This document shows, piece by piece, positions 58,500-62,602 of a stretch of DNA of 64,000 nt; position 1 is the first letter of the stretch, and every line of letters begins with the position of its first letter. The stretch is taken from positions 96,001 through 160,000 of the forward strand of contig OZ244044.1 of NCBI GenBank assembly GCA_965215275.1, given 5' to 3'. A program made the position numbers and the translations under genes. The notes under the pieces are model-generated. The model had not been told where the DNA came from and did no database searches. It worked only from the letters and a program-made list of their open reading frames with translations. Source of the stretch: Thermodesulfobacteriota bacterium (GTDB lineage: Bacteria; Desulfobacterota_D; UBA1144; Nemesobacterales; JAJCZQ01).

Positions 58500-59921
58500 A
58501 TGAACAATGAAGCAAAAGGCAGCAGCATTTACAGAATAGCTATAATAGGGTCTGGTCCGGCAGGGTTTTTTGCTGCAGGATATCTGTTCGATAATAAAGA
58601 CCTGAATATTGAAATTGATATGTATGACAAACTTCCAACTCCTTTTGGACTTGTCAGGTCGGGCGTGGCACCCGATCATCAGAAAGTAAAGAGCGTTACA
58701 AGGGTTTATAACAAGATAGCTGAAAATCCAAAGTTCAGATTTTATGGACTGGTCGAATTTGGGCTTCATATTACCCTTGAAGATCTGAAAAAGTTCTATC
58801 ATCAGGTAATTTTTGCCACCGGGACACAGACCGATAGAAGAATGAAGATCTCCGGCGAAGGTCTGGAAAGGAGCTATACTGCTACAGAGTTTGTTGCATG
58901 GTATAACGGACACCCTGCTTTTGTCGATTTTGATTTTGATCTGACTGTCGAAAAAGTGGCGATCGTAGGTATTGGTAACGTAGCAGTGGACGTGGCGAGA
59001 ATACTGTGCAGGTCTGCAAATGAACTTTCAAAAACGGATATTACGGACTATGCGTTCGATAAACTCATAAACAGCAATGTAAAGGAGATATATATGCTCG
59101 GGAGACGTGGACCCGCACAGGCGGCGTTTACAAACCCTGAAATAAGAGAACTTCAAAATCTTGAATCCGCGGATGTCATAACATTAAAGAAAGAAGTTGA
59201 ACTTGATGCTCTAACTACCTGTTATTTATCAAAAAACCCTGTCAGATCAACGGAAAAAAAAGTGCAGATGCTAAAAGAGTTCTCGGAAAACACCTGCGAT
59301 AAGGATAAACGTCTTATAATCAGGTTCCTTGTGTCTCCAGTGGAACTTCTGCCTGATGGAGAAGGAGGTGTTAAAGGTATTAAACTTGCGAAGAACGAAC
59401 TGTTCAGATCCGATGATGGTTCTTTAAGGGCACGTCCCACGGGTGAGCATGAGATATTAGAGGTAGGCACCGTGTTTCGCTCCATAGGGTACTACGGAAC
59501 CCCTCTTGCAGGTGTACCCTTTGATGAGTATCGTGGGATTATACCCAATAAGCAGGGCAGGGTTACCGACGAAAAAGGGAACAGCATTTTAGGACTGTAC
59601 ACGGCAGGATGGATAAAACGCGGACCCACCGGAGTTATAGGAACGAATAAAATGGATTCGTCAGAGACCGTTTCGGCGATGGTCGACGATATTCGCAGCA
59701 ATAAGACCTTTAAACCTGAATTTACCAGTTCAGAGAAAGTGGAAACTTTACTTGAAGAAAGCAAGGGAAGTGATTCGGGTTATATTGACTATGCCGACTG
59801 GCTTGAGATAGATAAGGATGAGGTCAGTAAGGGAAAAATAAAAGGGAAACCTCGGGTGAAATTTACCACTGTTGAGGATATTAGAAAGCTTTTAAATAAA
59901 AAAAGGGAATTATATAGTTAA
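58500..59921 (+). CDS. Ferredoxin/adrenodoxin-NADP+ reductase (FprA-like); stop codon now supplied by the inserted element
   Basis: IGSGPAG, PFGLVRSGVAPDH, GIGNVAVDVAR, GWIKRGPTGVIG. Confidence 0.9.
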   Translation: MNNEAKGSSIYRIAIIGSGPAGFFAAGYLFDNKDLNIEIDMYDKLPTPFGLVRSGVAPDHQKVKSVTRVYNKIAENPKFRFYGLVEFGLHITLEDLKKFYHQVIFATGTQTDRRMKISGEGLERSYTATEFVAWYNGHPAFVDFDFDLTVEKVAIVGIGNVAVDVARILCRSANELSKTDITDYAFDKLINSNVKEIYMLGRRGPAQAAFTNPEIRELQNLESADVITLKKEVELDALTTCYLSKNPVRSTEKKVQMLKEFSENTCDKDKRLIIRFLVSPVELLPDGEGGVKGIKLAKNELFRSDDGSLRARPTGEHEILEVGTVFRSIGYYGTPLAGVPFDEYRGIIPNKQGRVTDEKGNSILGLYTAGWIKRGPTGVIGTNKMDSSETVSAMVDDIRSNKTFKPEFTSSEKVETLLEESKGSDSGYIDYADWLEIDKDEVSKGKIKGKPRVKFTTVEDIRKLLNKKRELYS

Positions 59922-60060
59922 GTAGACAAACTTACCTATACTGTTCTGAGTGCAGAGTTCCTCTATCCCTGTTCTCTTTTGATCTGATACTCTTAGCACT
60001 CATCGGGAGTATTGCTACCTTATTCCCGCCCGATATGAAGTCTCCTTCATTAAGAGTATT
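59885..60060 (-). ncRNA. Putative omega-RNA overlapping the tnpB 3' end, plus flank-derived guide
   Basis: Several stems: ATGAAG-GAGA-CTTCAT, ATCGGG/CCCGAT enclosing GTA-GCAA-TAC, GAGTGC/GCACTC, TATAGGTAAGT/ACTTAACTATA; boundaries approximate. Confidence 0.6.
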
Positions 60061-61223
60061 GATATTTTTACCTGCATTTATATCCCTGTCTTCTGAATAA
60101 CCGCAATATATACAGTTAAATACTCTTTGATACAAAGGCAGTTTTGGATTTATCTTTCCACATTCAGAACAGGCTCTTGTTGTATAATGAGCTTTAACTA
60201 AAACCAGCTTGCCTCCAGCTATCTCGGCTTTGTAAGCAAGTTGATGTTTGATCTTACCCCATTGCTGTTCCGTTATGGATTTAGCAAGATGATGGTTCTT
60301 TACCATTCCTTGTATATTCAAATCCTCTAATTTTATATGATTACTCTTCTTTACGGTCTCTGTTGTTAATCTGTGTATAGCATTATTTTCACGATCGGTA
60401 GTTCGTTCCCATTCCTTCGCTAACGATAAAACTTTCTTCTTTCTGCTATCAGAACCTTTTACCGCTCTTGAAACAATTCGTTGCTTTCTTTTCAGTTCCT
60501 TCCTGTCTATCCTGATACCGGGAACTTTAGTTCCATCTGAAAAAGCTAATCTGTTTGTTATTCCAAAATCTATCCCTATGGATTTATCCAAAGGTCTCTT
60601 CTTCTCATCTGTAAACTCACACAGAAACTGGAGCTTAATTCTTAACGAACTTTGAATTACTCTTATTATTGTTTTAGGTGCTTTCAAACAAACACACTCT
60701 GGCATACTACCTTTGAAAGATAATCTGCCAAGTCCCTTTATCGTTAAATATGTTCTTCTGCCTGTCTTCTTTATGTTTTTATAATTGTTTGTTTCAAATG
60801 AACGAACTGGTCTGTTTGAACTTTTATATTTAGGTCTGCCAACCTTCCTTACCTTCTTACCTGCTTTTTTATTCCTTAAATAGCTCAAATAAGGACTATA
60901 TGCATTATCCAGTCTTTCCAGAACGCTTCTTTGAGCTACCGCATTAAACTTTTCAAATCCCTTGTCTTGCTCTCGGACCTCAGTTAGTTCGTTAAACTGT
61001 TCGTATTTAGAGATAGTTCTTCCATACCAATCCCAGGATCTTAACCTATGGTACAAGGCACTGTTATACAGATCGGTAAGCTGATTTAAGAATTCATCCA
61101 GCCTTTTATGAAAACCACTATCTGCCTTTACAGTTCGTGTAATCGTTCTAACCATGCTATAATACTACCATTTTCCTACCAATTTTACAAGTTCTTTCTT
61201 GTCAACTTAACTATATAATTCCC
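59905..61223 (-). mobile_element. Non-autonomous TIR-bounded element carrying only tnpB (IS1595-like ends)
   Basis: TIRs GGGAATTATATAGTTAAGT(A/T)GACAA at 59905-59929 and 61199-61223 (24/25 match); direct repeat TAAAAAAA at 59897-59904 and 61224-61231. Confidence 0.85.
59932..61155 (-). CDS. tnpB: RNA-guided endonuclease TnpB
   Basis: LYNSAL, RuvC-I GIDFG, RuvC-II KLEDLNI, zinc finger CSECG...CIYCG, RuvC-III DRDINAGKNI. Confidence 0.93.
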   Translation of the reverse strand: MVRTITRTVKADSGFHKRLDEFLNQLTDLYNSALYHRLRSWDWYGRTISKYEQFNELTEVREQDKGFEKFNAVAQRSVLERLDNAYSPYLSYLRNKKAGKKVRKVGRPKYKSSNRPVRSFETNNYKNIKKTGRRTYLTIKGLGRLSFKGSMPECVCLKAPKTIIRVIQSSLRIKLQFLCEFTDEKKRPLDKSIGIDFGITNRLAFSDGTKVPGIRIDRKELKRKQRIVSRAVKGSDSRKKKVLSLAKEWERTTDRENNAIHRLTTETVKKSNHIKLEDLNIQGMVKNHHLAKSITEQQWGKIKHQLAYKAEIAGGKLVLVKAHYTTRACSECGKINPKLPLYQRVFNCIYCGYSEDRDINAGKNINTLNEGDFISGGNKVAILPMSAKSIRSKENRDRGTLHSEQYR

Positions 61224-61230
61224 TAAAAAA

Positions 61231-61287
61231 ACACCAAGCTGAACTACTGTATTAACAGAGTTAATATGTAGATAAACAGCTTGGTGT
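61231..61287. terminator. Long inverted repeat between convergent genes, possible bidirectional terminator
   Basis: ACACCAAGCTG...CAGCTTGGTGT with an inner imperfect stem CTACTGTATTAAC/GTTAATATGTAG. Confidence 0.55.
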
Positions 61288-61303
61288 ACTTTGTCGAGCG
61301 TTA

Positions 61304-62602
61304 TTAGCTCTTCTTCCTTTTTGAGATCGGTGAGTATTTCCTTGCTTTATAACCCGTGTAAACCTGGCGTGGTCTTGCGATTCTTCTTTCTGGGTCTTCC
61401 AGCATCTCTTTCCACTGTGCAAGCCATCCCGGTGTTCTTCCAATTGCAAAAAGTACTGTGAACATGCTCGTTGGCAGTCCCATGCTTTGATATATCAGAC
61501 CGGAATAGAAGTCCACGTTCGGATATAAACGACGTTTTACAAAATAATCGTCTTCAAGGGCTATTCTTTCAAGTTCCAGTGCAATATCAAGAAGAGGGTT
61601 CTTACCTGTTTCCTCGAACACGTCATGTGCTGCGTCCTTTATGATCTTGGCTCTGGGATCATATGCTTTATAGACCCTGTGACCAAATCCCATAAGCCTG
61701 AATTCACCCCGCTTTGCCCTTTCGATATAATCAGGGATGTTCTTCTTGGACCCTATTTCTCGAAGCATCTTTAAAACGGCTTCATTTGCACCGCCGTGCA
61801 GCGGACCGTACAATGCCCCTATAGCGGATGCCGTTGCAGTATAAGGATCAGGTTCTGAGCTTCCCACGTTCCTCATGGCGCTCGCACTGCAGTTTTGCTC
61901 ATGATCGGCGTGAAGTATGAACAGAACATCAATGGCTTTCTCGATAGCTTTATTGGGTTTGTATTTTAGTTCGGCCATTTTAAACATCATGTTCAGAAAA
62001 TTCCCTGTATAGCTGAGGTCGTTGTCAGGATATATATAAGGAAGTCCCATGATATGTCTGTAGGAAAATGCCGCAATGGTCGGTACTTTTGCTATAAGAC
62101 GGTTTATCTGAAGTTCATTGTTCTCGTTATCAAAGATCTCCTTGGCTTCAGGATAGAAGGTCGACAGTGCAGCGACCGTACCCATGAGCATTCCCATTGG
62201 ATGTGCGTCATATCTGAAACTGTCAACCAGCTTTTTAATGTTCTCATGAATATAGGTATGATGGGTTATGTTGTGTTCAAAGTCCCTGAGCTGCTTCCGG
62301 TTCGGCAGTTCTCCATTAAGCAGTAAATATGAAACTTCAAGAAAAGAACTTTTTTTAGCAAGTTCTTCGATCGGGTAACCCCTGTAGCGTAAAATACCTT
62401 TTTCACCATCAATGAAGGTAACTTTACTTTTGCATGATGCAGTGTTGCCAAAGGCAGGGTCGTAACTCATCATTCCAAAGTCAGTATCTTTTACCTTGAT
62501 CTGCCTGAGGTCGGTTGCCCTGATGGTATCGTTCTCAACGGGAACCTCATAAACCTTCCCCGTTCTGTTGTCCGTTATCGTCAGTGTACTTTTCTTTGCC
62601 AT
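61304..62602 (-). CDS. gltA: Citrate synthase
   Basis: YRGYPIE, LHADHEQN, GPLHGGANE, GFGHRVYK, YPNVDFYSG. Confidence 0.96.
   Translation of the reverse strand: MAKKSTLTITDNRTGKVYEVPVENDTIRATDLRQIKVKDTDFGMMSYDPAFGNTASCKSKVTFIDGEKGILRYRGYPIEELAKKSSFLEVSYLLLNGELPNRKQLRDFEHNITHHTYIHENIKKLVDSFRYDAHPMGMLMGTVAALSTFYPEAKEIFDNENNELQINRLIAKVPTIAAFSYRHIMGLPYIYPDNDLSYTGNFLNMMFKMAELKYKPNKAIEKAIDVLFILHADHEQNCSASAMRNVGSSEPDPYTATASAIGALYGPLHGGANEAVLKMLREIGSKKNIPDYIERAKRGEFRLMGFGHRVYKAYDPRAKIIKDAAHDVFEETGKNPLLDIALELERIALEDDYFVKRRLYPNVDFYSGLIYQSMGLPTSMFTVLFAIGRTPGWLAQWKEMLEDPERRIARPRQVYTGYKARKYSPISKRKKS

What the first reader, a model, noticed from the sequence alone, without database searches (positions are those of the whole stretch)
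59897..61231. TnpB packaged between DDE-type terminal inverted repeats with an 8-bp TSD: candidate new class of RNA-guided transposon
Seen: 25-bp TIRs (GGGAATTATATAGTTAAGT[A/T]GACAA, one mismatch) at 59905-59929 and 61199-61223. Identical 8-bp flanks TAAAAAAA lie outside both. The only cargo is tnpB with RuvC D-E-D and zinc finger intact; its stop is 2 bp from one TIR and its ATG 43 bp from the other. Known: prokaryotic TnpB normally travels with Y1 (IS200/IS605) or serine (IS607) transposases, whose ends lack TIRs and make no TSD. About 25-bp TIRs with 8-bp AT-rich TSDs are typical of the IS1595 family, and GGGAATTAT fits my recollection of the ISNwi1-group end consensus (ggnnatTAT). Inference: a non-autonomous IS1595-type element has adopted TnpB, paralleling Fanzor capture by eukaryotic DDE transposons, and is mobilised in trans.
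Basis: partly seen in the sequence, partly recalled or inferred. Interest (0 to 1): 0.92.

Follow-up and report, generated by a model that had tools for sequence, protein, structure and literature searches.

The report
TnpB nuclease cassette with IS1595 ends
A 1.3-kb mobile cassette carries only the gene for an RNA-guided DNA cutter (TnpB) between the ends of an unrelated transposon family (IS1595), is likely moved by that family's enzyme, and sits beside a base that tracks one amino acid of the cutter, which likely marks the cutter's recognition motif.

Summary
Observation confirmed. The genome holds 20 tnpB cassettes with these ends (13 with intact, all different 8-bp duplications) and intact IS1595 transposases with the same end family. 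Homologues occur in several phyla; a sibling site's empty allele keeps one copy of each duplication.

In 87 of 87 insertions the base just 5' of the upstream duplication is a purine, against 26 of 48 for transposase-bearing controls. It tracks residue 76, the equivalent of ISDra2's TAM-reading Q80: Arg gives G in 64 of 66, Gln gives A in 9 of 9, but only 2-3 independent contrasts support this. The terminal repeat likely closes the omega-RNA pseudoknot. So the TAM likely straddles the duplication's edge and the rest seeds the guide. TnpB would cut empty alleles; insertion itself shows no sign of RNA guidance.

Not a new class: DDE-associated TnpBs with inverted ends, solo copies, and a motif 8 bp upstream (DDE-5) were reported in 2023. 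This scan saw the family before, in at least 9 genomes and elsewhere in this one. The IS1595 assignment, residue-base code and register were not found in my searches.

The parts
61231..61233 (-). Predicted TAM, 5'-TGT-3': two flank bases plus the first base of the upstream duplication
   Evidence: G at this position in 8 of 8 clade-A copies, T next in 8 of 8; register inferred from R76 = ISDra2 Q80
61224..61231 (.). 8-bp target-site duplication on the upstream (TAM) side
   Evidence: sequence
61199..61223 (.). Terminal inverted repeat at the 5' side of tnpB, IS1595-type
59932..61155 (-). tnpB, 407 aa; R76 codon 60928-60930; RuvC D196, E277, D358; residues 376-407 have low model confidence and overlap the omega-RNA
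59905..60040 (-). Predicted omega-RNA scaffold: two covarying stems and a pseudoknot between the loop at 60022-60027 and the last bases of the terminal repeat; 5' limit uncertain
   Evidence: synonymous change drops in codons 371-405
59905..59929 (.). Terminal inverted repeat at the 3' side of tnpB, likely doubling as the 3' end of the RNA scaffold
59897..59904 (.). 8-bp target-site duplication on the downstream (guide) side
   Evidence: sequence
59888..59903 (-). Predicted 16-nt guide: duplication bases 2-8 plus 9 flank bases (start could be one base earlier)
   Evidence: inference; no RNA data
58500..59921 (+). Host flavoprotein oxidoreductase gene (PF07992) whose last codons were replaced by the insertion
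   Evidence: frame test against G001
61304..62602 (-). Host citrate synthase, convergent neighbour
   Evidence: adjacent to the oxidoreductase with no element in G001

Best explanation
This is a transposase-free cassette with IS1595-type ends and an 8-bp duplication whose only gene is an intact tnpB; it is likely moved by an IS1595 transposase encoded elsewhere, and its TnpB is predicted to cut element-free copies of the same site so that repair would copy the cassette in. SHOWN: the ends, duplications, multiple copies, transposases with the same end family, an empty allele at a sibling site, conserved catalytic residues, a one-sided purine next to the upstream duplication, and its match to residue 76. 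INFERRED: (1) transcription runs through the 3' repeat into the flank; (2) the repeat's last bases close the pseudoknot; (3) the TAM is two flank bases plus duplication base 1 (5'-TGT here); (4) duplication bases 2-8 plus flank form the guide, so the occupied site offers only a 7-base match and the empty site a full one; (5) insertions that happen to land next to a TAM are kept or spread by this homing, which is why nearly all surviving copies have one.
For: Same end family and 8-bp duplications around IS1595 transposases: 48 elements; none of the 101 tnpB or transposase elements in that call carries both genes. Empty allele: one contig of run X5 joins across G000 1616480-1619604 with no extra letters, leaving one copy of each duplication. 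At the window site, removing the element plus one duplication puts the host stop at the same codon as in G001. Purine at the key position: 53 of 53 versus 26 of 48 controls, p 3e-9, and absent on the mirror side; 33 of 33 in new loci; pooled 87 of 87. Within G000: clade A G in 8 of 8, clades B/C/D A in 11 of 11, non-TnpB elements G at 0 of 22 ends. R76 aligns with ISDra2 Q80, which reads TAM base -2 (PMC10097598). Arg: 64 G, 2 A; Gln: 9 A, 0 G; Lys: 6 G, 4 A; Leu: 1 A. Duplication base 1 is never G (0 of 87), T in 8 of 8 clade A, A in 15 of 15 clade D. RNA: 10 of 16 pairs change on both sides; pseudoknot position 5 shows four Watson-Crick pair types. dN/dS 0.15-0.34; D-E-D invariant in 81 of 81 full-length rows.
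Against: No cleavage, RNA or transposition data. The residue-base link rests on 2 independent contrasts on well-supported branches (3 counting F73), which cannot reach significance. The F73 explanation for the two Arg exceptions is post hoc. A review reports that Q80 substitutions in ISDra2 did not substantially improve use of other TAMs (PMC13639567). Selection after insertion must be nearly absolute to give 87 of 87, yet TnpB-free elements also persist with intact duplications. The transposase with the closest ends (3 mismatches, G000 1100815) is split in two frames; intact ones differ at 5-8 of 25 positions. No empty allele of the window site itself was seen in 4 runs laid, and runs X3 and X5 carry the element there. 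Counts use only insertions whose duplication has at most one mismatch.
Confidence: 0.62

Rival explanations
1. TnpB helps choose the insertion site: the ribonucleoprotein binds a TAM and positions the trans-acting IS1595 transposase so that the element lands oriented, with the TAM at the edge of the duplication.
For: There is no unexplained exception among 75 Arg or Gln insertions once F73 is allowed; orientation and register are exact; TnpB-free elements survive without any TAM.
Against: No guide-like similarity between sibling target sites (duplication bases 2-8, p 0.16; flank, p 0.075). A TnpB bound on TAM and seed would be expected to cover the bonds the transposase must attack (inference). 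Homing can produce the same end pattern.
Confidence: 0.2
2. Same biology, different register: the TAM lies wholly outside the duplication and the guide starts at duplication base 1.
For: The strongest signal is the base just outside the duplication; the 2023 paper describes the DDE-5 motif as 8 bp upstream of the end.
Against: Q80 reads -2, not -1; duplication base 1 is lineage-biased (T 8 of 8; A 15 of 15) while base 8 is not; in ISDra2 the last scaffold base lies beyond the pseudoknot.
Confidence: 0.2
3. The flank bias comes from the transposase or the end subfamily, and TnpB is a passenger.
For: End subfamilies differ between TnpB lineages and may use different transposases; independent contrasts are few.
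Against: Transposase-bearing elements show no bias (T14, G13, A13, C8). Four TnpB-free G000 elements with ends like two clade-A copies have no G at either end. The bias is one-sided relative to tnpB, and tnpB and its RNA are under constraint.
Confidence: 0.07
4. TnpB mainly binds its own left junction (TAM plus 7-base seed) and blocks the transposase or its own promoter, so copies beside a TAM are excised less often.
For: The geometry places a TAM and partial seed match directly against the 5' repeat in every copy.
Against: A 7-base match is short for stable binding (own knowledge); the nuclease residues are invariant, which a pure blocker would not need.
Confidence: 0.08

Closest known systems
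DDE-associated TnpB branches DDE-1 to DDE-6, especially DDE-5 (Altae-Tran et al. 2023, PMC10691335)
   Same: Inverted terminal repeats, TnpB 3' end near the element end, solo TnpBs within transposase-type ends; DDE-5 has a TA motif 8 bp upstream of the end, the same spacing as here.
   Different: The passages I read name only IS630 (DDE-6); a 2026 review lists ISL2, IS630 and IS1031 (PMC13565253). DDE-5 is listed among branches with rearranged catalytic sites represented on plasmids, whereas these have canonical D-E-D. The motif here is mostly G, switching with residue 76. Figure 4 and Additional files 10-11 were not visible, so this family may be, or overlap, DDE-5.
IS200/IS605 TnpB, ISDra2 (PDB 8H1J, 8EXA; PMC10097598) and solo IS1341
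   Same: Fold (TM 0.64-0.71 to TnpB structures), RuvC triad, zinc finger, RNA overlapping the gene's 3' end and ending in a pseudoknot at the element end.
   Different: Inverted repeats and 8-bp duplications instead of hairpin ends without duplication; the TAM is separated from the left end by 7-8 bp; no linked Y1 transposase.
Fanzor in eukaryotic DDE transposons
   Same: TnpB-like nuclease inside inverted-repeat elements that make duplications.
   Different: In Fanzors the 5' duplication is part of the TAM and the 3' one lies in the RNA scaffold (PMC13565253). Here the duplication is long and variable and would mostly form the guide seed. RuvC-II E sits about 50 residues before the zinc finger, as in TnpB, not 6 as in Fanzor.
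IS1595-family passenger-carrying and non-autonomous elements
   Same: GG-starting ends, 8-bp duplications, zinc-finger DDE transposase in the same genomes (PMC8101967).
   Different: The passenger appears to use the end and the duplication as working parts of its RNA.

Membership tests
IS1595 family (non-autonomous derivative) | 8-bp target-site duplication | tested here: met
   13 of 20 G000 cassettes with at most one mismatch; empty allele with single copies
IS1595 family (non-autonomous derivative) | Terminal inverted repeats shared with IS1595 transposase elements | tested here: met
   48 transposase elements bounded by the same end family; 3-8 mismatches in 25 to the window repeat for bounded G000 elements with good ends
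IS1595 family (autonomous IS) | Encodes a DDE_Tnp_IS1595 transposase | tested here: not met
   Only tnpB inside the ends; 0 of 101 elements carry both
IS1595 family (non-autonomous derivative) | Moved by an IS1595 transposase in trans | not testable with these tools
   Inferred from shared ends; needs a transposition assay
ISNwi1 group | Group end consensus and transposase clade | tested here: inconclusive
   Consensus is recalled only; search listed two papers that I did not read; no reference sequences were compared
TnpB RNA-guided nuclease | RuvC D-E-D, zinc finger, TnpB fold | tested here: met
TnpB RNA-guided nuclease | Structured omega-RNA ending in a pseudoknot at the element end | tested here: met
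   By covariation only; expression not observed
TnpB RNA-guided nuclease | TAM-dependent cleavage guided by flank-derived RNA | not testable with these tools
   Flank bias and residue match are indirect
IS200/IS605 and IS607 | No inverted repeats, no duplication, Y1 or serine transposase | tested here: not met
   NF038281 and NF038280 below cut-off
DDE-5 branch (Altae-Tran 2023) | Motif 8 bp upstream of the end | tested here: met
   Same spacing; TA in some lineages, NG in most
DDE-5 branch (Altae-Tran 2023) | Placement in that branch of the TnpB tree | not testable with these tools
   The paper's alignments and tables are not held
RNA-guided transposon (CAST-like) | Insertion site chosen by guide pairing | tested here: not met
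   No excess similarity among sibling targets; an indirect test with 47 sites

The most novel reading that the evidence does not exclude
TnpB does not only guard the site afterwards but steers the insertion: a TnpB ribonucleoprotein reading a 2-3 base TAM positions a borrowed IS1595 transposase, giving oriented insertion in fixed register, retargetable by one residue (Arg for G, Gln for A). That would be a minimal two-protein, TAM-directed integration system.
Probability: 0.2. Interest if true: 0.9.

Novelty: new variant of a known kind. Interest (0 to 1): 0.62.

Why it matters
It shows how an RNA-guided nuclease can live on a transposon that makes long, variable target duplications, a case a 2026 review calls rare and mechanistically open: the terminal repeat would close the RNA pseudoknot, and the duplication would supply the last TAM base and the guide seed. 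The insertion sites act as a natural TAM screen. They predict compact nucleases of 380-485 aa with very short TAMs and a one-residue switch at the Q80-equivalent position, which is cheap to test. The system also makes homing versus guided target choice separable by experiment.

Tried and rejected
Rfam scan of the element: 4 chance hits, none near threshold. Single-protein locus search in genome contigs: nothing; the alignment search worked. Autonomous elements with both genes: none; two G066 loci with tnpB near a transposase have separate ends. Guided insertion by sibling guides: not supported. Promoter scan: at chance level. Sequencing runs: no RNA holder listed. Empty allele of the window site: no joint in X3, X5, X7, X8, with X7 and X8 only patchily covered. 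TnpB-transposase complex prediction: no answer, score 0.04, no evidence either way. Phylogenetically independent pairs for residue 76: 2-3 pairs, all in the same direction or uninformative, not significant. A formal one-clade test for one versus two captures returned no result, so two captures rests on the FastTree and 25-28% identity. G000 1951904 is not a TnpB and was dropped. L164 is a spurious end pair without duplication. L070 repeats the L045 insertion and was dropped. Copy 327507 was left out of clade-A counts because its duplication is shifted by one base.

Full report
Observation. The element spans window 59905-61223 (1319 bp, 36% GC against 42% for the genome). It has 25-bp inverted repeats with one mismatch, TAAAAAAA on both sides, and one ORF, a 407-aa TnpB.

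The family in this genome. G000 (1.99 Mb, one contig) has 66 exact copies of the 12-base end motif against 0.75 expected. Of 26 regions hit by TnpB queries, 20 are bounded by these ends, and 13 of those have an 8-bp duplication with at most one mismatch, all different. They fall into clade A (407 aa, the window's; 85-99% identical), clades B and C (463-485 aa; 44-51% to A) and clade D (400-405 aa; 25-28%). There are 28 PF12762 matches; three tested proteins pass NF033547. Several transposases keep the full catalytic motif, but the one with the closest ends is split in two frames. No resolvase was found, and the single weak Y1 hit is a 271-aa protein with no tnpB beside it.

Distribution. Homologues at 35-43% identity occur in genomes labelled Arenicellales, Pseudomonadales, Paracoccaceae, Dehalococcoidia, Gemmatimonadota, Latescibacterota, Binatia and Thermodesulfobacteriota, and in 14 of 60 relatives. 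Some labels suggest sponge symbionts; that reading is from recall. Of 116 loci L013-L130, 70 have an end pair and 43 a duplication. Of 71 more distant TnpB loci (37 with enough flank), one has a spurious pair and none a duplication. The main clade (110 rows, support 99) is separate from clade D in a FastTree, suggesting two captures; this was not formally tested.

Real insertions. Run X5 holds a 5.8-kb contig that joins across G000 1616480-1619604, skipping two adjacent cassettes and leaving one copy of each duplication. At the window site, G001 (same genus) has the two host genes adjacent with no element. The junction DNA has diverged, so the single 8-mer is not seen directly. Removing the element plus one duplication copy, but not zero or two, puts the host stop at the same codon as in G001. 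Runs X3 and X5, from two studies, carry the element at this site.

The flank signal. With elements oriented by tnpB, the base just 5' of the upstream duplication is G 43, A 10, C 0, T 0 in 53 insertions. In 48 transposase-bearing elements it is T 14, G 13, A 13, C 8; a few of these rows are nested and share an end. The mirror position downstream is unbiased. In G000, clade A has G in 8 of 8, clades B/C/D have A in 11 of 11 (5 of these with imperfect duplications), and 11 TnpB-free elements have G at 0 of 22 ends.

The residue match. Residue 76 aligns with ISDra2 Q80, which hydrogen-bonds TAM base -2 (PMC10097598). I picked this position by homology after seeing the G/A split; it then ranked first among the columns scanned, tied on errors with four columns that need more states. 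As a prediction test, 117 further loci gave 38 elements, 33 of them new: 33 of 33 purine, Arg with G in 24 of 24, Gln with A in 1 of 1, Lys mixed, one unassigned. Pooled over 87: Arg 64 G and 2 A, Gln 9 A, Lys 6 G and 4 A, Leu 1 A, unassigned 1 G. Both Arg exceptions are the only rows with Phe at 73, the equivalent of ISDra2 F77, which contacts a target-strand thymine; this explanation is post hoc. Against: insertions are independent events but lineages are not, and only 2-3 independent contrasts exist. A review also reports that Q80 changes did little to retarget ISDra2.

Register. If the biased base is TAM -2, duplication base 1 is TAM -1. It is never G (0 of 87), is T in 8 of 8 clade-A copies (p 9e-5 against controls) and A in 15 of 15 clade-D copies (p 3e-4). 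The guide would then start at duplication base 2. This is inference.

RNA. The last 135 or so bases hold two stems with compensatory changes; 10 of 16 named pairs change on both sides and 96.7% of cells pair, above all 500 shuffles, which ignore relatedness. A loop GGG(A)(A) can pair with the element's last bases. The three G-C pairs were part of my search pattern and are no evidence. Positions 4 and 5 each pair in 78 of 88 loci, with Watson-Crick counts 75 and 62 against shuffle means 64.5 and 40; about 8 rows were misregistered. Synonymous divergence falls to 0-0.095 in codons 371-405 against up to 0.49 elsewhere, and dN/dS for codons 1-370 is 0.15-0.34 over 10 pairs. No RNA data exist in what I could reach.

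Mechanism. Most likely an IS1595 transposase moves the cassette to AT-rich 8-mers. The RNA reads through the 3' repeat into the duplication and flank. At the occupied site TnpB finds a TAM and only 7 matching bases; at an empty allele, from precise loss or from an element-free chromosome, it finds a full match and cuts, and repair copies the cassette. Copies beside a TAM are thus retained or driven. The completeness of the bias is the weak point of this model and keeps open that TnpB acts at insertion. Sibling targets show no guide-like similarity, so base-paired targeting is unlikely.

Prior art. Altae-Tran 2023 (PMC10691335; main-text passages and passages of the supplement PDF; Fig. 4, tables and additional files not seen) reports six DDE-associated branches with inverted ends, solo TnpBs within such ends, and a TA motif 8 bp upstream of DDE-5 ends. 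IS1595 appears there only in a profile list. The unseen files may bear directly on novelty. I read passages of PMC13565253, PMC10097598, PMC13639567 and PMC8101967. Searches for TnpB with IS1595, DDE ends, TAM and TSD, ISNwi1, sponge symbionts and DDE-5 (listings only, apart from the papers named) showed no paper that names this pairing; subscription journals are largely not covered. This scan noted the family in at least 9 genomes, including the purine bias, and at G000 1834243; look-ups for the residue link found nothing.

Verdict. Real, widespread and under constraint; a new variant of a known kind. The specific, testable additions are the transposase family, the repeat-closed pseudoknot, the TAM register and the residue-base match.

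Noticed in passing
G000:C1:17470-21955, 1028600-1033127, 1496306-1500591, 1897941-1900957: Stretches of 3-4.5 kb with neither tnpB nor transposase, bounded by the same ends and an 8-bp duplication; at least two appear to be host-like genes between a pair of roughly 430-bp miniature elements, i.e. composite transposons.
   Followed up: partly
G000:C1:675417-678070, 1002026-1005187, 1812584-1815955: IS1595 elements with passenger genes that look like DNA methyltransferases by eye (recalled motifs, not scanned).
   Followed up: no
G000:C1:1616480-1619604: Two tnpB cassettes sit head to head 16 bp apart; each one's predicted TAM comes from the other's duplication, and both are absent in run X5.
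   Followed up: partly
G000:C1:396221, 1973424, 1982938: Several copies of the commonest 313-aa IS1595 transposase lack the last catalytic Glu.
   Followed up: no
L059:1318-3182 and L063:1327-3179: 1.85-kb tnpB cassettes with about 620 extra bases before the gene and no clear ORF there.
   Followed up: partly
window 61226-61292: A 16-bp imperfect inverted repeat with a 35-base loop between the convergent host genes; the element inserted at its A-rich edge.
   Followed up: no
G000:C1:1883440-1883715 (L011): A 271-aa protein with a weak Y1 match, resembling REP-associated tyrosine transposases by recall; not linked to tnpB.
   Followed up: no
G000:C1:1742862-1743187: A 326-bp internally deleted clade-A copy that keeps both ends, a perfect duplication, the RNA region and the upstream TG.
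   Followed up: no
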